A stretch of DNA of 64,000 nucleotides from a virus: positions 47,870 through 111,869 of the IMG/VR virus record IMGVR_UViG_3300028864_000019; one strand, written 5' to 3'. Below, piece after piece: positions 4,018 through 58,111 of this stretch. Each line of letters opens with the position of its first letter. The stretch's first letter is position 1. The notes beneath the pieces were generated by a model. The model did not search any database and was not told where the DNA came from. It saw only the letters and a program-made list of their open reading frames with translations. The translations under genes and the position numbers were made by a program.

Positions 4018-4797
4018 TTAAGCCAACATATTATTTTTATTGTATAAATATCTTAAACCATCAGCTAAGTTCTTTAAAGCTTCTGGTGATGGTTTATTGC
4101 ATCTTACGGTTATAGTCACTTCTCTACCACCAATAATTCTCTTATCAACCGTTGTAGTCCACTCGCTTTTATTAACAGATTCAACTTCCTCTAAATCAAC
4201 TGCCTTTATTTCCTTTTCATTTAATGATTGACATACAACATTTATTTCTAATGGAATATTTCTTTTTCTATCTCTATAATTTTTAGAAATGAATCTAGCT
4301 ATATATTCTATTTTAATATCAACATCTCTATATTCATTGTTATCTTTTACGAAATCATCATATAAGTATTTTATCATAGAATATTCTTTTTGTATTTTTG
4401 CTAAATTTAATGACATAAATTTATGTTTATAATCATCATATTGTTTAGATGATTTTTTATTGCTCTTTATTAATACAGGAATTAATTTATCTATTATTGT
4501 ATTTATATAATCACTAATATTTTTATAATTTTTTGTAACAGCTTTTAATAAACTTGTATTGAAGTCTTTCTCCCAATTATTACATAACTTAATTAACTTG
4601 AAAATCTCAAACATTTCATATCCTTCGGTTGGAATATGAACAAATTTCAAAGGTTCGTATTTTTCAAATTCTGATTTTATAAAGTTAGCATTAATATTAT
4701 ATTTTTCTAGTTCTAATTTTAATCCTTCTATAGTTGCGTTTCTGTTCCCGTACATATATTTTTTAACTATAGTCTCATATCTTTTTATTTGTGGCAT
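4018..4797 (-). CDS. hypothetical protein
   Basis: 259 aa ORF, AGGAGG RBS. Confidence 0.65.
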   Translation of the reverse strand: MPQIKRYETIVKKYMYGNRNATIEGLKLELEKYNINANFIKSEFEKYEPLKFVHIPTEGYEMFEIFKLIKLCNNWEKDFNTSLLKAVTKNYKNISDYINTIIDKLIPVLIKSNKKSSKQYDDYKHKFMSLNLAKIQKEYSMIKYLYDDFVKDNNEYRDVDIKIEYIARFISKNYRDRKRNIPLEINVVCQSLNEKEIKAVDLEEVESVNKSEWTTTVDKRIIGGREVTITVRCNKPSPEALKNLADGLRYLYNKNNMLA

Positions 4798-43193: not shown

Positions 43194-44669
43194 ATGAGCA
43201 AAAAGAATAAGGATAATGATATAATTTTAAGTTTTGTCGGTGGAAGTAGGGACGATATTTGTGGATCTGCTTTATTAATTAGCTATCCTATAGGAAATGA
43301 CAAACATAAATGCGTTTGTCTAGAATGTGGCATGATACAAGGAGAATCAAAACCAGAGATAGAATATTCAATGAATAAAAAAATGGTTGAAAATATTCCA
43401 GTAGGAGGTATTTCGGGAGTGTTTTTAATGCACTCCCACGTCTGAGTAGACCATATTGGGAACACACCTATATTTGGACAAGATATATTCAAAGGTGAAA
43501 TAATTACAACAGAAGAATGTTTAATGATATCTAAAGAATTATTAAAAGATAGTGTGTATTTACATGATTGTTTAATAAAAGGTTTAAAAGCAAAAGGGAA
43601 AAGACCTAAAAACTTATATACTGAATTAGATATGTATAAGATGTTAGAGAAGGTAAAAACAGTTGAAACACATCAAGTATATAAATTTGATGATTGGTTA
43701 AGTTATGAATTTTATAATTCTGGACATGTATTAGGTGGTACTCAATTGAAACTTACTTTTAGACTACCTAACAATAATATAAAATCCTTAGTTTACACAA
43801 GCGATTTGGGATCAGATTACAATTTAAAATATAAACCATTTGTAAAGAAAAGAGATATAATTCCTAAGGCTTCAATGTACGTTTTTGAGGCAACTTATTC
43901 AAACTCTGAAAAGTGCTTTGATAAAAATTTAGTAGAAAAAGAAAGAAATGAACTAAAAGAAACTTTAACTAAATATTTAAAAAGTGGACACCGAGTATTT
44001 TTTCCTTCCTTTTCTTTCGGGCGTACCCAAGAGTTACAATTTTTAATAAATTCGTTTTTTAAAGATGAAGAATGGTTTAATGAAATACCAGTAACAATTG
44101 ATGGAAGATTAACTAATTCTATATGTGATACTTATAGCAAGATATTAAAATATGATGAATTTGAGGACTGGGAGAGAATAAAAAACTGGAAGAATTTTCG
44201 TTATAATAAAGAATATAAAGGTACTTTGGGAATATTATCTAAAAGAGAATGTGGAATTTACATAAGTTCTAGTGGATTTGTTCAACCTAAAACACGTAGT
44301 TGTGACTATGTTAAAAATTTTATGGGAGTTACAGGAGATCTAATTTGTTTCGTAGGATATTACGGAGCTGAAGGTTCAATTTCTCATGAATTAGTTACTA
44401 GACCAATAGGCACTCCTATTAAAATTGATGGAAGTACATTAATAAAAAGTTGTGATGTTCTTACTCAGAAAACATTTTCGAGCCACATTCAACAAGAAGA
44501 AATTTTTAGCTACTGGAGTCAAATAAACACAAATAAGATTCTAATACACCATTGTACTGAAGAAGGAAAAATTGAAATGAAAGAAAAGGGAACTGAATAT
44601 CTACAAAGTAAAAATAAAACAACTAAAATTGTAGGAGTAAGTAAATTTGCTTCACAATTCATTTTATAA
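43194..44669 (+). CDS. MBL-fold beta-CASP nuclease interrupted by in-frame TGA at 43443
   Basis: Both track ORFs share one frame; HSHV*VDH, SGHVLG, YTSDLG, EATY, FSFGRTQE, FSSH, H motifs. Confidence 0.85.
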
Positions 44670-45029: not shown

Positions 45030-45690
45030 AAGGCATGTACTAGAAATAGACGTGACCTTTCATTAAAAGAACTGTTTTATAAGGAGTAAAAGAATAACGA
45101 TCCTTTCCCTAGTGGGGGAATAATAATACCATGATTTGCTTGGCTATTGGGTAATACATAGTCTGTTATTCAAAGATTATAAAGAACGAGGTATAGATTC
45201 CCAACAAATATTGAAGTGAGTTAGAAACTCAGACAAAGAAGAATTTTGCCCAAGTGGGAATAAGGAAATCAATACTAAAAATTTACTAATAACATACTAA
45301 ATACTACAAACAGTGAATTTTATTAGTTGGTAATATACTTACCTCATACTCAATACTTTAAGTTGAGAGAACGACAATGAAGTATTTGCCTTGTTACGGG
45401 TAAATATGGAGTCTTATTTAGAGTTTTAGGTAAACTTAGGTGTAACTAGAGATTTGATCTTGAAAAATAAAAACCTATGATACAAATACGCTTCACAATG
45501 TGCGACAAAAATACATTGTATTGATAGATGGAGGCATTCTAGCTGTACCATCGTGACTAATTGTTCATTCTAGAATGATTAGATATTGGGTTGGAATATA
45601 TCCACACAAATAATGAATTGAGTTATGATGGCTCTAACAAAAAAGATGTATTCCCTTTTGTGATATATGGGAGGTTAAATAATAATATCA
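45030..45690 (+). ncRNA. candidate large structured ncRNA upstream of tRNA
   Basis: ~660 nt without long ORFs, with many hairpins; strand inferred from flanking genes. Confidence 0.45.
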
Positions 45691-45698
45691 CATTACAC

Positions 45699-45788
45699 GG
45701 AGAGTTGGCAGAGTGTCCGAATGCACTGGTTTGCTAAATCAGCATACGTTTATTCGTATCGAGGGTTAGAATCCCTCACTCTCCTCCA
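45699..45788 (+). tRNA. tRNA-Ser (GCT), atypical
   Basis: GGAGAGT/ACTCTCC acceptor, CTGGT-TTGCTAA-ATCAG anticodon arm, long variable arm, GAGGG-TTAGAAT-CCCTC T arm, encoded CCA. Confidence 0.88.
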
Positions 45789-47628: not shown

Positions 47629-48225
47629 ATGGGAGAAGTATATCAACAACGGAATTTATTGCTAGAAGAAATCAAATTAGTAGATTACAAAGATAATAAT
47701 ACACTATATATTGATGATGAAATTACAACTGAATTTATAATAATGTTATCAAGACAATTAAAGAAACTTGCCACTAAACAACTATCATTGAGCAAGGAAG
47801 ATAGAACACCAATAAAATTAATCATAGCTTCTCCAGGAGGAAGTTTAGTTGATGGAATGCATTTTTGTGACCTAATGGAATATTACATTAATAAAGGGAT
47901 AGAAATTCATACATATTGTACAAGCTATGCTTATTCAATGGCATTCAAAATATTTATATGTGGATCTAAAAGATTTGTATATAAGAGAAGTGATTTAATG
48001 TGACACCAATGGAATAGATTTAGATACGGTACTGAGACATATCAAGATACTGTAAATGATAGAGAGCAATGCGATAGATGGTACAAGTTAATAGTTGATT
48101 TAATAACTGAGAAAACAGGTATAACTAAAGAACAATTTGATAGCTATACAAAGAGTAATAAAGACTTTTATATGGATGGTGCTACTGCTTTAAAATTAAA
48201 TGTTGCTGATGAAATAATTATATAA
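47629..48225 (+). CDS. ClpP-like serine protease interrupted by in-frame TGA at 48001
   Basis: IASPGGSL, AYSMA (Ser), SDLM*HQ (His), KDFYM (Asp), ALKLNVADEII; frame stays open to TAA at 48223-48225. Confidence 0.85.
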
Positions 48226-51468: not shown

Positions 51469-52830
51469 TTGATTATGGAAATAAGAAAATGTAAAAAATG
51501 TGGACAAGAAAAAGAATTAAACGAGGAAAATTTTTATAAAAACAAAAATGGAAGTTTTGAAAATACATGTAAAGCTTGTAGGAATAAAGCAAAAACAGAA
51601 CAAGAAATTAAATATAGAGAAAAGTTCTATGCTAAAGATGGATATAAAGTTTGCAAATGTTGTAATATTAAAAAAGAGGTATCAGAATTTGGATTATATG
51701 CTAAAGCTAAAGATGGATATTTGTCTAAGTGTTTAAATTGTTCTAATGAGAAAGATACATGGAGTCAAAGGGATAAAGATATTATTATAGCTAATTATAA
51801 TAAATTAATAATCAAAGAGATAATTCCATTGCTTAGCGTTAATCGTACTGAAAAATCTGTATTACATATGAGTAAAAAACTAGGATTATATAAAATAAAT
51901 AATGTAGTAGAAGATTATGACAAAATAAAATATAAAGACATTAAAGGCAAAAGATACAAATTATGCAAGTGCTGTAATGAATATTTACCATTAGAATTTT
52001 TATATTTTCCAAAAGATAATACTTGTAGTGATGGTTTTAGAAACGTATGCAAAAAATGTAAAGGTGAGAACTATGCAATATCTGATTCATACATATGGAA
52101 AGATGAAGAAGTAATAATTATTCAAAATAATTATTCAGATATGACCAATAATGAAATGAAGAATGAATTTTTCCCACATTTAACAATTAATCAAATTATG
52201 GATAAAGCTCATAGTTTAAATTTACATAAAAGTGATGAAAGTAAATTAAGAGCAACAAATGACGCACAAACTGAGGAATGGAGAAATAAAATAAGTGAGA
52301 CTCGACTTAAAAATGGAAAATCAAAAGGCGAAAATAATCCAATGTTTGGTTCTGCAAGATTTGGTAGTTTAAATCCTAATTATAAAGGTGGAATTAGTAA
52401 TATAGAAAATGAATTAAGAAGAAATATTAACCAATGGAAATTAGATAGTATGAAAGAATGCAATTTCAAATGTATTATTACAGGGGAAAGGTTTGATCAT
52501 ATTCATCACTTATATAGTTTTGATAATATAGTTAGAGATACTTTAGAAGAATTAAAATTACCTATATATGAAACTATAAGTAATTATACAGATATGGAAA
52601 TAAAACAAATTATATGTAAATGTACAGAAATTCATTACAGGTATCCATTAGGGAAATGTATGAAAGAAGAATATCATAAAATATTTCATCAAAATTATGG
52701 ATATGGAAGAAATACACATAGTCAGTTTGATGAGTTCTTAATTAGATTTTTTGAAGGAGCATTTGACGAACAGTTAGAAGAACAATATAGAAGTAATAAA
52801 ATATTAAAAAAATTAGAAGTTGCTAATTAA
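51469..52830 (+). CDS. HNH-type homing endonuclease with zinc fingers and NUMOD3-like motifs
   Basis: Repeated CxxC, NPMFG/NPNYKGG, CIITG...HIHH...HKIFHQNYG. Confidence 0.75.
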   Translation: MIMEIRKCKKCGQEKELNEENFYKNKNGSFENTCKACRNKAKTEQEIKYREKFYAKDGYKVCKCCNIKKEVSEFGLYAKAKDGYLSKCLNCSNEKDTWSQRDKDIIIANYNKLIIKEIIPLLSVNRTEKSVLHMSKKLGLYKINNVVEDYDKIKYKDIKGKRYKLCKCCNEYLPLEFLYFPKDNTCSDGFRNVCKKCKGENYAISDSYIWKDEEVIIIQNNYSDMTNNEMKNEFFPHLTINQIMDKAHSLNLHKSDESKLRATNDAQTEEWRNKISETRLKNGKSKGENNPMFGSARFGSLNPNYKGGISNIENELRRNINQWKLDSMKECNFKCIITGERFDHIHHLYSFDNIVRDTLEELKLPIYETISNYTDMEIKQIICKCTEIHYRYPLGKCMKEEYHKIFHQNYGYGRNTHSQFDEFLIRFFEGAFDEQLEEQYRSNKILKKLEVAN

Positions 52831-54442: not shown

Positions 54443-56337
54443 ATGGGTATCACAATTATAAATAAAGGTAATTTGACTCAAAAAAAGTTAGAAGGTTATT
54501 TAAAATACAATGAAATACTTGTATGGGGAAGAAGAAATCCTGTAAAGTTCGCAGAATTAGTGTTGGGACTTGAACTTATGGATTATCAAAAATATACATT
54601 TCAAGAATCATGGAGCAAACAATTTGCATTATGGTTGATGTCTCGTAATGGAGGCTGAGTAAATCAACTTTAAGTTCTCCATTTATAATGACAAAAATGA
54701 TGTTATTTCCAAACTTTCAAAGCTTTATACTTTCATTAACCGCAAGTCAAAGCCAAGATACCTTTCTTTGACAACTTAAAATGGAGTCAATAGCAAAAAA
54801 ACAAATAGAATCTTTTTGTGGATTAACAGATATATTTTTAGGAGAAGTTTCTGCAAGTGCTAACCATGATGGATTTGTTCACTCTCCTCAAGGATTTAGA
54901 TGTAAGCTATTTAACAACAGTCAAGTTACTACTGTTTCTGGGGAAGAAGATAATATTAGAGGGAAAAGATCAAATTTAAATTTGTATGATGAAAGTGGTT
55001 TCATAAGTGAAAACTATATTTCAGTTACAAAATCATTTTGTACACAGGATTCGTCGTTTAAGTTAGGTGGTGGTATAAACACCGAAACTATACCGATGAA
55101 TATTCCTAATCAATTATTGTTTTGTTCATCTGCTAGTAGTACGGATTCTGCATTTTATACATTATATAAAGAGTGGGCAAAGTTAATGTTTGCAGGAAGT
55201 AAAGACCATTTTGTAGCTGACTTAAATTGTGAGGTTATAATAGGAGCTACATTAAAAGGTAAAAAATTAAATATACCATTGTTATCACAATCTAAAGTTG
55301 ATGATGAAATAAGGTCAAACTCAGAGAAAGCAAATCGAGAATATTTTAATCGTTTTGATGCTGATGGTGGAAATAAACAACCTATAAAACGTGCAGTAAT
55401 TATGAAAAATTCATCAGTTAGAAAACCATTATTAATTAATGAAGGAAATATAAAAAGACACATTGCAATTTCATATGATCCAGCACATGATTATGATAAT
55501 TCAGCGACATCAGTAGGAGAATATATATATGATGAACAAGTTGGATGGAAATTAATAATTCAAAACTGTGTAAGTCTTGTGGATTTAGGGAAAAAGAAAA
55601 AAACTCCAATGAGAACGCCAGAACAAATTAAAGAGATAAAACAAATGCTAATAAATTATAACGGAAAAGGCAAGGCTGATTATGAGAATATAGATTGTTT
55701 ACTAGTTGATGCTGGTTCAGGAGGTGGTGGTCCGATAATCGCAGATTATTTTATGGACGACTGGGAAGATGAACAAGGAAATAAACATAGGGGATTAATT
55801 GATAAAGAAGCCTGTGCTGAACATGTAAATTCTTATCCGAATGCAGTAGGAAAATTAAAATTAGTATCACCTAAAAAATATAAAACAGAAATGTATGATG
55901 ATTTTGTAGAATTATTAAATTTAGGACTAATTGAATTTACAGATAATTATGATATGAAAGGGTACTTAAGTCTACCACAGGAAGGAAAAGAGATTGAAGA
56001 AATTGATGAGGATACGAATGAAAAGAAAAAGGTAAAATCAATAGATTATAAACAATACAATCTATCTTGGGACGAAGAATTGGCATTAAAGCAAATTGAT
56101 AACGCAAAAGAAGAATTAATTGCAATAAGAAGACAAGGTGATGATATAAATTATAAATATGAACTGCCTCCTGATAAAAAGAGTAAAATGCATGATGATA
56201 GAGCTTACACAATGGTAATGTTAGCTTGGCATTTAAAAAACCTTAGACGTGACGGAATAGTTAATAAGCAAGCACCACAAGTTGATTGGTCAACAGCACC
56301 AACATTTGTTTCATCAGTAAATTTCAATTCTATATAA
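54443..56337 (+). CDS. terminase large subunit interrupted by two UGA-containing inserts (54656-54660, 54769-54777)
   Basis: MDYQ adenine motif, SRNGG|KST split Walker A, IRGKRSN.NLYDESGF Walker B, YDPA and HDDRAY nuclease motifs; about 626 aa if both inserts are skipped. Confidence 0.88.
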
Positions 56338-56362: not shown

Positions 56363-58111
56363 TTGACAAAAAAACAATCTACAGAAATCCCAATCCCTCA
56401 ACTACAAAAGATAGATTTAACTATACCAGTTCTATCAGAAGGCGAAACAAAACAAGTGTCTAATATCGGTGGGAATTACATCTTATCAGATATAGAAACA
56501 TCTACTACTAAAGATTATTTTGATCCAAACTACATACAACAAGCTACATATGATGCACAAAGATTAAGTAATATTTATAGTACTGTATTAGATAAAAATA
56601 CATCATCTTATGTTACAACTATGGACGAATTATCCTCATTAGCACAGAACACTCAAACTAGTATAGATAAAATAAAGAAAATAAACGGAATAGTTAAATA
56701 TTACATAAACAAAGAAGATTTAATTGGTAGAGTGGTTGAAACTATAGAAAATAATATAAACATAAATTACAAAATTGATTATCCATCTCCTAGCAGTAAA
56801 AAAGGTACTAAACTAAAAAAAGAACAAAAAATGGAAGACGAATTAAAAGTAGTAATAGAAAAGTTTAATAAACAAATTAATATACCTAAGTTAATAGCCG
56901 ATAATGCAGTTATTACATATACAGAAGGTAATTTTATATTCTATTTAATGGGTGATAGTGAAAATGGTTATTCTATAGTAAATTATCCAATGGATATTAC
57001 TGAAATCACACCAATGAGAATTGATGACGACCCAGTAGTGTCTTTTAATGTTACTGAATTATCATCAAGGTTACAAGAGAGTAGAACAAAATATGGAAGA
57101 TTAAAAACAAATAAACTTATTGATATTGAAAAAACAATAGAAGACGAAGTTAAAAAATGTTATCCTACTGAAATATATGACGCTTATAAAGGGAAAGACC
57201 AATATGCTTTATTAAATCCACAAAAAATAGGATTAAATAGGATAAATAATTTAAAAGGGCTATATGGATTAACACCTATATTTAAAGCACTACAACCTCA
57301 ATTAATGTTGGAAACGGTTGATAAAAGTGACCAAAAAGTATTAATTCAAAAGACTAAAAAGATTTATTTGCAATTAACTGAAAAAGAATTAATGGAAAAG
57401 CCAAATGCCATTAATATGATAGGTCATGCACATGTGAGTTTACTTGAAGCTATGTCAAAAGATACTATTATATATACTGCTGACCCACAAGTACAAGATT
57501 TAAAATTGATTGAACCTAAAACTGAGTTGACTGATGAAAAAACTAAATCAGGTTATAAGTTAAGAATATTAGAAGCATTAGGAATATCATTTATTAGTTC
57601 AGAAGGTTCTAAATCTATAACAACTACTAAAATAAACTATGACGAACTATTAAAAATGGTTAATAGAATAACTAAGAGTTTAGAACCAATCCTTAATAAA
57701 TACTATCAGTTGGTATGTGAAGAAAATGGTTTTCCTTTGGAATATTCACCTACTATAACTATTGAATCTACTAAGTTGCTGGATTTAGAAACATTATTAA
57801 GGTTAGTAGAAACTATGTACTCAAAAATTGGATTAAGCTACGATACTATTTTGACAATGCTAGGATTAAATCCTGAAATTGAAATTAATAAACGTGTAAA
57901 AGAAAATAAAGTAACAATAGATGGCGTAGAAATGACTACTGATGATATTATGAGTCCTCATATAACATCTTTCACAACATCGGGAAAAGACGGAGACACG
58001 GTAACACATAATAATCTAGATTCTAATACCAATAAGAATAATAGTAAAAAAAATGAAAATATAGATAAGCAAGAATCAGATCAATCACGAAAAGAAGCAT
58101 TAAAAGTATGA
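56363..58111 (+). CDS. portal protein
   Basis: 582 aa directly after terminase; YGLTPIFKAL portal-like motif. Confidence 0.75.
   Translation: MTKKQSTEIPIPQLQKIDLTIPVLSEGETKQVSNIGGNYILSDIETSTTKDYFDPNYIQQATYDAQRLSNIYSTVLDKNTSSYVTTMDELSSLAQNTQTSIDKIKKINGIVKYYINKEDLIGRVVETIENNININYKIDYPSPSSKKGTKLKKEQKMEDELKVVIEKFNKQINIPKLIADNAVITYTEGNFIFYLMGDSENGYSIVNYPMDITEITPMRIDDDPVVSFNVTELSSRLQESRTKYGRLKTNKLIDIEKTIEDEVKKCYPTEIYDAYKGKDQYALLNPQKIGLNRINNLKGLYGLTPIFKALQPQLMLETVDKSDQKVLIQKTKKIYLQLTEKELMEKPNAINMIGHAHVSLLEAMSKDTIIYTADPQVQDLKLIEPKTELTDEKTKSGYKLRILEALGISFISSEGSKSITTTKINYDELLKMVNRITKSLEPILNKYYQLVCEENGFPLEYSPTITIESTKLLDLETLLRLVETMYSKIGLSYDTILTMLGLNPEIEINKRVKENKVTIDGVEMTTDDIMSPHITSFTTSGKDGDTVTHNNLDSNTNKNNSKKNENIDKQESDQSRKEALKV

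What the first reader, a model, noticed from the sequence alone, without database searches (positions are those of the whole stretch)
54757..54786. Second terminase insert with perfectly matched take-off and landing codons (CTT TGA CAA CTT)
The region reads D-T-F-L-*-Q-L-K-M-E. A CTT to CTT hop over 9 nt gives QDTFLKME. Readthrough (UGA-CAA context) would add 3 residues. Two interruptions within ~120 nt of one essential gene would make terminase output the product of two efficiencies, giving very tight repression. The annotated 518 aa ORF from 54781 lacks Walker A and should not be an active ATPase alone.
Basis: partly seen in the sequence, partly recalled or inferred. Interest (0 to 1): 0.82.

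Follow-up and report, generated by a model that had tools for sequence, protein, structure and literature searches.

The report
Stop-hop gaps in phage terminase gene
The DNA-packaging enzyme gene of this uncultured clostridial-type phage carries a 9-base, stop-led insert that no relative's protein has. Its design, and about two dozen similar tiny inserts in related phages, indicate that ribosomes hop over it, a decoding trick with very few natural examples.

Summary
At 54766-54780 the large terminase gene (terL, 54443-56337) reads CTT TGA CAA CTT AAA. All 20 aligned homologs read QDTF[L/M/I]KME with no gap, so exactly 9 nt (TGA CAA CTT) are extra.

A 5-nt insert (TGAGT, 54656-54660) splits the Walker A motif 110 nt upstream. 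A 6-nt insert (GTC TGA GTA) splits the HxHxDH motif of a nuclease gene at 43443.

I catalogued 24 such alleles at about 15 positions in related terL genes, including two Clostridiaceae genomes. In 18 the last triplet of the insert lies in the same codon box as the codon before it (0.9 expected, P about 1e-21). In 21 the next codon is a stop, 17 of them TGA. Gaps are 2-15 nt, many out of frame, and two carry two stops.

Interrupted genes stay under strong purifying selection (dN/dS 0.02-0.12). The window's broken ORFs recur exactly on 16-21 independent contigs.

The best reading is ribosomal stop-hopping. No protein evidence exists. Readthrough remains possible for this in-frame site.

The scan's earlier notes report similar terminase gaps on other DNA.

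The parts
54443..54655 (+). terL segment 1, codons 1-71, ending ..LMSRNGG with GGC as the take-off codon (54653-55)
   Evidence: ORF list and alignment A1. The exact ORF is on 21 contigs.
54656..54660 (+). Site 1 gap TGAGT (5 nt) inside Walker A. TGA follows the take-off codon. The landing triplet AGT (54658-60) matches GGC at positions 2-3 only. Reading resumes at AAA 54661.
   Evidence: Homologs read SRNGGKSTLSS and DNA relatives lack the 5 nt. Near-identical variants P0378 and P0379 read straight through as GGKST. The same +5 design occurs in L054 and L135.
54661..54768 (+). terL segment 2, K72..L107 (KSTLSS..SQSQDTFL), ending in the take-off codon CTT 54766-68
   Evidence: Frame-3 translation and alignment A1.
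54769..54777 (+). Site 2, the finding: 9 extra nt made of TGA (the A-site stop), CAA and the landing codon CTT. CTT TGA C is the same heptamer as the prfB +1 shift site.
   Evidence: Absent from all 20 homologs and from 6 related loci at DNA level. The heptamer is found in the prfB genes of two related hosts.
54778..56337 (+). terL segment 3 (KMESIAKK... to the stop TAA). It holds Walker B (LNLYDESG) and the nuclease domain. The 518-aa ORF called from ATG 54781 lies within it.
   Evidence: The TerL fold is supported. No Shine-Dalgarno sequence precedes ATG 54781.
54746..54772 (+). Predicted 7-bp stem GUCAAAG (54746-52) / CUUUGAC (54766-72). Its 3' arm is the take-off codon plus UGA plus C.
   Evidence: Folds (z = -1.6). 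This is weak evidence, and any role is inferred.
43440..43451 (+). Same design in another gene, a beta-CASP/MBL nuclease (43194-44669): GTC | TGA GTA | GAC. The 6 extra nt lie inside HxHxDH, with matched Val codons.
   Evidence: Seventeen homologs read H.H--[VIC]DH. The site is identical in a 95% relative from another metagenome. A 4-bp tetraloop hairpin is predicted at the site.
48001..48003 (+). In-frame TGA in the ClpP-like gene (47629-48222). It is not hop-type: it replaces a conserved Cys codon and there is no extra DNA.
   Evidence: Alignment A7 shows 11 of 11 homologs with C at this position. Pfam CLP_protease match.

Best explanation
The 9 nt TGA CAA CTT are a short coding gap that ribosomes skip by stop-hopping.

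Proposed steps:
- Peptidyl-tRNA-Leu sits on CUU (54766-68) with UGA in the A site.
- RF2 termination at UGA-C is slow enough for the tRNA to unpair.
- The mRNA slides 9 nt and the same tRNA re-pairs with the next CUU (54775-77).
- Decoding resumes at AAA, giving the conserved ..QDTFLKME.. TerL sequence.

An active terminase also needs the 5-nt hop at site 1 inside Walker A. Most ribosomes probably terminate or shift +1 into a frame that closes after 8 codons. If so, TerL output would be low and would depend on RF2 activity.

Shown here: the insert is real and absent from homologs; the flanking-codon and stop design recurs far beyond chance; interrupted genes are under purifying selection.

Inferred: the ribosomal mechanism, its efficiency, and its purpose. 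The purpose could be dosage or timing control through RF2. It could also be tolerated indels that block homing endonucleases or inteins.
For: 1. Twenty of 20 homologs lack the three codons, and 6 related loci lack the 9 nt at DNA level.

2. The take-off and landing codons are both CTT, and the stop follows the take-off codon directly.

3. The family catalogue holds 24 alleles at about 15 positions. Removing the stretch from the stop to the landing codon restores the conserved protein each time. In 18 of 24 the landing triplet is in the take-off codon's box, against 0.9 expected (P = 8e-22). Collapsing possibly related alleles gives 13 of 19 (P = 2e-15).

4. Take-off and landing codons differ together at one position: GAA/GAG, GAG/GAA and GAT/GAC in three lineages.

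5. The codon after take-off is TGA in 17 alleles, TAA in 2, TAG in 2 and a rare sense codon in 3. Ordinary ORF ends in this window are mostly TAA (40 of 53).

6. Many gaps are out of frame (2, 4, 5, 7, 8 or 14 nt). Two in-frame gaps hold two stops: TGA TGA AAG, and TAG GTT AAC TAG. Readthrough cannot serve as the common mechanism.

7. dN/dS is 0.02-0.12 between interrupted genes, on both sides of the breaks.

8. Two Clostridiaceae genomes carry 3-4 sites each.

9. The broken ORFs of this phage recur exactly on 16-21 contigs from three assembly sources. Near-identical variants with other combinations of sites exist, so each insert is viable.

10. Both related hosts have RF2, and their prfB genes carry the CTT TGA C shift site.

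11. The family has the TerL fold. Only one terL match was found on the contig.
Against: - There is no peptide, reporter or ribosome-profiling evidence.
- From my memory of Weiss et al. 1987, synthetic stop-hops in E. coli run at around 1%. Two hops in series could give very little TerL unless these hosts or the phage raise the efficiency.
- I found no shared stimulator. Nascent peptides differ between sites, and local folding is only mildly stronger than in shuffles (mean z about -0.7 over 20 sites).
- This site is in frame and UGA-C is a leaky context, so a +3-residue (W-Q-L) readthrough product is also possible. The model places the site inside a helix.
- The same phage has a TGA at a conserved Cys codon of its ClpP gene. 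That site needs readthrough or Sec insertion, or is a null allele.
- Six of 24 alleles lack a landing triplet in the take-off codon's box: four match at two of three positions, and two (L075, L028 q107) match only at the middle position.
- The contig is only about 54% complete, so a second terL elsewhere in the phage is not excluded.
Confidence: 0.66

Rival explanations
1. UGA readthrough. A near-cognate tRNA, most likely tRNA-Trp, reads the in-frame TGA. TerL then carries three extra residues (W-Q-L) and that product is the functional one.
For: The site is in frame. UGA-C is a known leaky context (general knowledge). The ClpP gene of the same phage has a TGA at a sense (Cys) position. Three residues are close to one helical turn in the predicted helix 99-113.
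Against: No homolog tolerates any indel in QSQDTF.KME. Readthrough gives no reason for the insert to end in a copy of the take-off codon. It cannot rescue site 1 (5 nt, with TAA four codons on) in the same gene. It cannot explain the out-of-frame or double-stop gaps of relatives. No suppressor tRNA is present on the contig.
Confidence: 0.14
2. Non-functional allele. The inserts are inactivating lesions in a defective phage or prophage and no active TerL is made from this gene.
For: There are two lesions in one essential gene, plus lesions in two other genes. The contig is incomplete. One relative (L002) carries an extra 4-nt deletion that looks truly disruptive.
Against: All three insertion-type lesions have the hop design, and all four interruptions are TGA in a 26% GC genome where TAA dominates. 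The same alleles recur on 16-21 contigs. Interrupted relatives show dN/dS of 0.02-0.12. An ORF-boundary scan of the 112-kb contig, admittedly insensitive, found no other frame breaks.
Confidence: 0.08
3. Removal before translation. The extra bases are absent from part of the templates, through DNA-level polymorphism or slippage between the 3-nt repeats, or through an unknown RNA-level excision.
For: Near-identical contigs exist without the site 1 insert (P0378, P0379) and without the site 2 insert (P0370).
Against: Three-nucleotide repeats are too short for frequent slippage. Nothing in such a mechanism would demand a stop codon right after the first repeat, or a tRNA-cognate rather than identical second repeat (GAA/GAG, CTT/CTA, GGC/GGT). 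No bacterial micro-excision of RNA is known.
Confidence: 0.06
4. Split gene. Translation terminates at TGA and re-initiates at ATG 54781, and the pieces assemble without a covalent link.
For: ATG lies 9 nt after the stop. Gene callers annotate the 518-aa ORF.
Against: No Shine-Dalgarno sequence precedes the ATG. The cut would fall inside a predicted helix. Site 1 cuts the P-loop between G and K, where no start codon follows. In relatives the resuming frame often has no start codon at all.
Confidence: 0.03

Closest known systems
Candidate UUA-led translational bypassing in the large terminase of Streptomyces phage phiHau3, prophage StrepC.1 and a S. catenulae prophage (Smith 2013; Antonov et al. 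2023, PMC10732093)
   Same: The gene is the same (terL). There are two short non-coding inserts at highly conserved junctions. A slow-to-decode codon sits in the A site at take-off. The authors propose that the inserts make terminase synthesis depend on the host's translational state.
   Different: Here the A-site codon is the stop UGA, read by RF2, not a rare sense codon. The gaps are 5 and 9 nt rather than 7-10 nt. The hosts are low-GC Firmicutes. The take-off and landing codons match explicitly. The phenomenon spans about 15 positions and 24 alleles in one family, against 3 of 100 ter genes in that study. No experiment has been done here.
Synthetic 'stop-hops' in E. coli, with matched codons flanking a stop so that 9 nt specify one residue (Weiss et al. 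1987; O'Connor et al. 1989; as reviewed in PMC5009743)
   Same: The architecture is the same: codon X, a stop, then a cognate codon X', with re-pairing of the P-site peptidyl-tRNA.
   Different: Those were engineered constructs. The 2016 review states that no natural in-frame stop-hop was known. Here the design sits in natural, essential, selected genes and extends to 12-15 nt and to out-of-frame landings.
Phage T4 gene 60 50-nt bypass, part of the MobA homing-endonuclease cassette
   Same: Matched take-off and landing codons (GGA/GGA). A stop directly after take-off. A link to homing-endonuclease traffic: in that system the insert protects the target site.
   Different: The T4 gap is 50 nt and needs a nascent-peptide signal and a take-off stem-loop, with about 40% efficiency as cited in PMC10732093. 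Here the gaps are 2-15 nt and I found no shared peptide or strong structure. A protective role is only inferred, from site 1 lying 3 nt from the family's intein insertion point.
prfB (RF2) programmed +1 frameshift at CUU UGA C
   Same: The heptamer CTT TGA C is identical, and the competition is the same: RF2 termination against movement of peptidyl-tRNA-Leu. The motif is present in the prfB genes of two related hosts.
   Different: At site 2 the +1 frame closes after 8 codons and no Shine-Dalgarno-like sequence lies 3 nt upstream. The productive event must therefore be a 9-nt hop to CTT, not a +1 slip to UUU.
Magnusiomyces capitatus mitochondrial 'byp' elements (Lang et al. 2014; as cited in PMC10732093)
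   Same: Many bypassed inserts occur per genome and per gene, and their distribution is mosaic and fast-changing.
   Different: Byps are 27-55 nt, GC-rich, mobile elements in a eukaryotic organelle. Here the inserts are 2-15 nt with no recognisable element sequence.

Membership tests
Translational bypass / stop-hop site | The skipped nucleotides are absent from homologous genes, and the protein junction is conserved without them. | tested here: met
   Twenty of 20 homolog proteins and 6 related DNA loci lack the 9 nt.
Translational bypass / stop-hop site | The take-off and landing codons are cognate to the same peptidyl-tRNA. | tested here: met
   CTT/CTT at site 2. Across the family 18 of 24 alleles match, P = 8e-22. 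Site 1 matches at only 2 of 3 positions.
Translational bypass / stop-hop site | A slow-to-decode codon (a stop or a rare codon) sits in the A site at take-off. | tested here: met
   TGA directly follows CTT. In 21 of 24 alleles a stop is at that position, and in the other 3 a rare ACG or CGG codon.
Translational bypass / stop-hop site | The protein product lacks the residues encoded by the gap. | not testable with these tools
   This needs mass spectrometry of the junction peptide or a reporter assay.
Translational bypass / stop-hop site | Stimulatory signals are present, such as mRNA structure at take-off, a nascent peptide or a Shine-Dalgarno-like element. | tested here: inconclusive
   A 7-bp stem includes the take-off codon and the stop (z = -1.6). 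Mean z over 20 sites is about -0.7. No common peptide was found.
Programmed stop-codon readthrough | Homologs carry a sense codon at the stop position, and the flanking residues align without a gap. | tested here: not met
   There is a three-column gap in all homologs. The ClpP TGA at 48001, by contrast, does meet this feature.
Selenocysteine insertion | The UGA aligns with Cys or Sec in homologs, and a SECIS hairpin lies downstream. | tested here: not met
   Homologs have no residue at this position. Downstream folding is weak (-6.9 kcal/mol, z = -0.2).
Alternative genetic code (TGA as a sense codon, tables 4 or 25) | TGA is used as a sense codon throughout and never as a gene end. | tested here: not met
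   TGA ends the portal-like gene (56363-58111) and at least two other genes. Trp is encoded by TGG. Only four in-frame TGAs lie inside long coding frames. Related hosts have RF2.
prfB-type +1 frameshift | The +1 frame after CUU U is open and encodes the rest of the protein. | tested here: not met
   The +1 frame reads FFDNLKWSQ and then stops.
Large terminase subunit (TerL) | An ASCE ATPase domain with Walker A and Walker B, followed by an RNase H-like nuclease domain, encoded next to the portal gene. | tested here: met
   The AF2 model has pLDDT 88. Foldseek top hits are T4 gp17, HK97, Sf6 and D6E TerL at E about 1e-13. The motifs SRNGGKST and LNLYDESG are present. Pfam, PHROGs, NCBIfam and PDB sequence searches found nothing.
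Pseudogene | Selection is relaxed (dN/dS near 1) and lesions are unpatterned. | tested here: not met
   dN/dS is 0.02-0.12. The lesions are patterned. The alleles recur on 16-21 contigs.

The most novel reading that the evidence does not exclude
A lineage of large phages of clostridia and bacilli uses many short, UGA-led stop-hop gaps as a working genetic device. The gaps are gained, lost and reshuffled quickly. They sit at homing-endonuclease and intein hot spots such as the P-loop. They couple the output of terminase, and of other enzymes such as the MBL nuclease, to the host's RF2 activity. This would be a phage-side counterpart of the prfB CUU-UGA-C sensor, possibly helped by an as yet unidentified phage or host factor that makes hopping efficient.
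Probability: 0.3. Interest if true: 0.92.

Novelty: new variant of a known kind. Interest (0 to 1): 0.85.

Why it matters
Natural translational bypassing rests on very few cases: T4 gene 60 and its relatives, yeast mitochondrial byps, and the candidate phiHau3 terminase. A major 2016 review states that no natural in-frame stop-hop was known (PMC5009743).

This family offers about two dozen natural alleles with graded gap lengths (2-15 nt), in-frame and out-of-frame landings, and single or double stops. Take-off and landing codons also differ together between lineages. That amounts to a ready-made mutational series for working out the rules of short-range ribosome hopping in Gram-positive hosts.

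There are practical consequences too. Gene callers split these essential genes or mistranslate them: public databases hold table-4 read-through versions with W at the stop. Phage completeness and 'defective prophage' calls may therefore be wrong.

The finding also suggests that phages can tie packaging to RF2 activity, or can protect conserved motifs from inteins and homing endonucleases with bypassable micro-inserts.

Tried and rejected
I could not fetch DNA for the protein-only variants P0003, P0008, P0370, P0378 and P0379.
No read-level check or RNA evidence was possible, and read laying went unused.

Searches that found nothing:
- Pfam, PHROGs, NCBIfam and a PDB profile search gave no terminase hit. 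Only the fold search did.
- There is no suppressor tRNA. The only tRNA on the 112-kb contig is tRNA-Ser(GCT).
- Rfam gave no hit at the sites or in the roughly 250-nt inserts of relatives.
- Two pattern scans of viral contigs for site-2 inserts found only L028's contig.
- Scans for further in-frame or frame-shifted breaks in this contig and two related contigs were too noisy in AT-rich DNA to add sites.
- Five literature searches found no description of this family's gaps.

Readings I rejected:
- Tables 4 and 25. TGA is a genuine gene end here.
- A productive prfB-like +1 shift. The +1 frame is closed.
- Sec insertion at site 2.
- A hop at the ClpP TGA. It replaces a Cys codon and no DNA is extra.
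- An ungapped HMMER alignment placed the MBL TGA on the second His of HxHxDH. Close homologs showed that a two-codon insert is the right reading.

Full report
**What is there.** The window is the 3' 64 kb of a 111,869-bp IMG/VR viral contig that CheckV rates about 54% complete. Its GC content is 25.9%. The frame carrying it runs without another stop from 54661 to the TAA at 56335-37.

Upstream, a 71-codon ORF (54443-54658) ends ..LMSRNGG-TGA in a different frame. Together the three pieces form one gene. Sequence libraries do not recognise it. An AlphaFold model of the intact homolog P0005 has pLDDT 88. Its best structural matches are the large terminases of T4, HK97, Sf6 and D6E, at Foldseek E about 1e-13. 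The gene lies directly upstream of a 582-aa ORF that the position suggests is the portal gene, although no library confirms that.

**The discriminating test.** A search of 5.8 billion proteins found 1,811 relatives. Twenty were aligned. Every one reads QSQDTF-[L/M/I]-KME, while the window has L-*-Q-L at that point. So three codons are extra.
- At DNA level, loci 77-84% identical to the window lack precisely these 9 nt. They also lack the 5 nt TGAGT that separate GGC from AAA in SRNGG|KST.
The gap is what is seen.

**The pattern is general in this family.** I compared the intact homolog with 120 related loci from viral, metagenome and genome collections. This gave 24 distinct interrupted alleles at about 15 positions, all within the first 185 codons.

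Examples, written as take-off | skipped | next codon:
- GAA|T GAG|TTA
- GAG|T GAA|TTC
- GAT|T GAC|TTT
- CTT|TGAA CTA|GGA
- CTG|TGAG CTA|GGA
- CAG|TGA CAA|AAG
- CTT|TAA CTA|GAC
- GGC|TGACATAATAC GGT|AAA
- CGC|TAG GTT AAC TAG CGT|AGA
- CTT|TGA TGA AAG CTT|TCT
- CTT|TGA CGA AGG CTT|TCT
- CAA|TGACC CAA|AGT
- GTG|TA|ATG, which re-pairs on the overlapping GTA

Removing the skipped stretch restores the conserved protein every time.
- In 18 of 24 alleles the last skipped triplet lies in the same codon box as the take-off codon. Base composition predicts 0.9 (P = 8e-22). After collapsing alleles that may share descent the count is 13 of 19 (P = 2e-15).
- At one position, three lineages carry GAA/GAG, GAG/GAA and GAT/GAC. 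The two codons therefore differ together between lineages.
- The three +5 alleles follow one rule. They are window site 1 (GGC/AGT), L054 (CTT/ATT) and L135 (TCA/ACA). In each, the landing triplet is the A of TGA followed by bases that pair like the take-off codon's second and third bases, with a C/T wobble at site 1.
- The codon after take-off is TGA in 17 alleles, TAA in 2, TAG in 2 and a rare ACG or CGG in 3. Open segments of at least 120 codons in this window end mostly in TAA (40 of 53).

**Why this is not decay, artefact or another code.**
- dN/dS between pairs of interrupted genes is 0.02-0.12, both upstream and downstream of the breaks.
- Every one of the 12 unique sequences in the window's clade is interrupted.
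- About 70 of the top 120 homolog clusters are ORF calls that start inside the gene. Five of them start exactly at the Met after site 2.
- The window's 518-aa and 71-aa ORFs are on record, letter for letter, from 16 and 21 contigs in three assembly sources.
- Two Clostridiaceae genomes carry such genes. Clostridium cuniculi has four TGAs in its single copy. A second genome, at 40% identity, has three sites.
- TGA is a real stop in this phage: it ends the portal-like gene and two others. No suppressor tRNA is encoded. Both related hosts have RF2.

**Turnover.** Relatives at 90% identity or more show other combinations:
- site 2 without site 1 (P0378 and P0379, which read ..SRNGGKSTLSS.. straight through, confirming the inferred junction)
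- a break at codon 44 plus site 2 (P0383)
- site 1 without site 2 (P0370, QDTFMKME)
- a fully intact 630-aa gene beside 519-aa versions in a single 90% cluster (P0385 and P0008)

L028, only 66% identical to the reference homolog, has gaps at both of the window's positions but with different sequences. So the inserts are individually viable and are gained, lost or recombined quickly.

**Other genes of this phage.** I tested both.
- The beta-CASP/MBL nuclease (43194-44669) reads CAC TCC CAC GTC TGA GTA GAC CAT. Seventeen homologs read H.H--[VIC]DH. So 6 nt are extra inside the metal-binding motif and are flanked by Val codons. The site is identical in a 95% relative from another metagenome.
- The ClpP-like gene is different. 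Its TGA (48001) replaces a Cys that is conserved in 11 of 11 homologs, and no DNA is extra. It needs readthrough or Sec insertion, or it is a null allele.

**Mechanism (inferred).** With peptidyl-tRNA-Leu on CUU and UGA-C in the A site, termination competes with unpairing of the tRNA. CUU UGA C is the heptamer at which RF2 synthesis is autoregulated. The prfB genes of both related hosts carry it.
- At site 2 a +1 slip is unproductive, because that frame stops after 8 codons. Re-pairing on the CUU 9 nt downstream restores the protein.
- A 7-bp stem pairs GUCAAAG (54746-52) with CUUUGAC (54766-72). The take-off codon and the stop form its 3' arm. Refolding behind the ribosome could favour forward movement.
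- The structural signal is weak, however: z = -1.6 here and a mean of about -0.7 over 20 sites.
- TerL needs both hops, so its yield would be the product of two efficiencies and would fall as RF2 activity rises. It is plausible but untested.

**A second possible role.** The inteins of this family insert between K72 and S73 of the P-loop. That is 3 nt from site 1, and three lineages have gaps at exactly that G|K junction. In the window's clade, the gap after Walker B (codon 183) and a roughly 250-nt non-coding insert at codon 170 do not occur together. In T4, the gene 60 gap protects the target of the MobA endonuclease. Micro-inserts that ribosomes can skip could play the same part here. The sample is small and the argument is an inference.

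**Comparison with what is known.** The nearest precedent is the phiHau3 terminase, with two 10-nt UUA-led inserts. Experiments there support bypassing but do not prove it. The architecture equals the synthetic stop-hops of the 1980s. For those, the 2016 review says no natural occurrence was known. Five full-text searches found no description of this family. I class the finding as a new variant of a known kind.

The scan's own earlier notes report similar terminase gaps in many other genomes. One of them looks like the L038 allele seen here. Those notes are unchecked and I did not use them as evidence.

**Limits.**
- No protein or read-level data could be obtained.
- For this in-frame site, a readthrough product may coexist with the hop product.
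- Hop efficiency is unknown.

Noticed in passing
window 48001-48003 (ClpP-like gene 47629-48222): An in-frame TGA sits where 11 of 11 homologs have Cys (..DLM-C-HQW..), next to the catalytic His. It is a single-base change from TGY with no extra DNA. The truncated 124-aa ORF is on 15 contigs. It could be Sec insertion, readthrough or a null allele. A weak hairpin starts 24 nt downstream (z = -1.5).
   Followed up: partly
window 43440-43451 (beta-CASP/MBL nuclease 43194-44669): A 6-nt stop-hop-type insert, GTC|TGA GTA|GAC, lies inside the HxHxDH motif. It is conserved identically in a 95% relative (L124). A GUCU-GAGU-AGAC mini-hairpin is predicted at the site.
   Followed up: yes
L084:2051-2296; L086:2022-2282; L005:3352-3554 and 4077-4393: Relatives carry inserts of about 200-320 nt in terL at codons ~170 (just before Walker B) and ~342. 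All three frames are closed. The inserts are conserved between L084 and L086. Rfam gave no hit at E <= 0.01. They may be small introns of an undescribed kind.
   Followed up: partly
proteins P0018, P0042, P0045, P0066, P0074, P0088; loci L072, L075, L078, L085, L087-L089, L098-L100, L110: LAGLIDADG inteins that start with Ala (GGK|ALALD...THN|STL) are inserted between K72 and S73 of the terL P-loop. This is 3 nt from the window's site 1 gap.
   Followed up: partly
L002:2913-2990 (IMGVR_UViG_3300030114_000066): This relative has the 4-nt GAA|T GAG gap plus a 4-nt deletion 41 nt downstream. The deletion would put hopping ribosomes out of frame, and on readthrough it would replace the invariant D47 and Q49. 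It is a truly defective allele, an assembly error, or something not understood.
   Followed up: no
proteins P0369, P0371, P0376, P0381 (public collection): Public gene calls of this same phage read the TGAs as Trp (..DTFLWQLKME.., ..NGGWVNQL). They were evidently called under table 4, so the databases hold mistranslated versions of the broken gene.
   Followed up: partly
window sites 54655-54661 and 43442-43448; L128, L003, L084: The gap sequence often begins TGAG(T): C-TGA-GTA occurs twice in the window, and L128 has GAC TGA GTC, L003 has GAA TGA GTT and L084 has CTG TGA GCT. This could be a GAG Shine-Dalgarno-like element or shared origin. I did not test it.
   Followed up: no
window 45372-45481 and 45699-45788: A near-threshold match to the 'drum' sRNA family (40.2 bits against a gathering score of 43) lies about 220 nt upstream of the contig's only tRNA, tRNA-Ser(GCT).
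   Followed up: no
window 51469-52830: A 453-aa protein with repeated zinc-ribbon motifs matches HNH/endonuclease VII PHROGs. It lies two genes upstream of terL and could be a free-standing homing endonuclease relevant to the cluster of gaps at terL codons 30-50.
   Followed up: no
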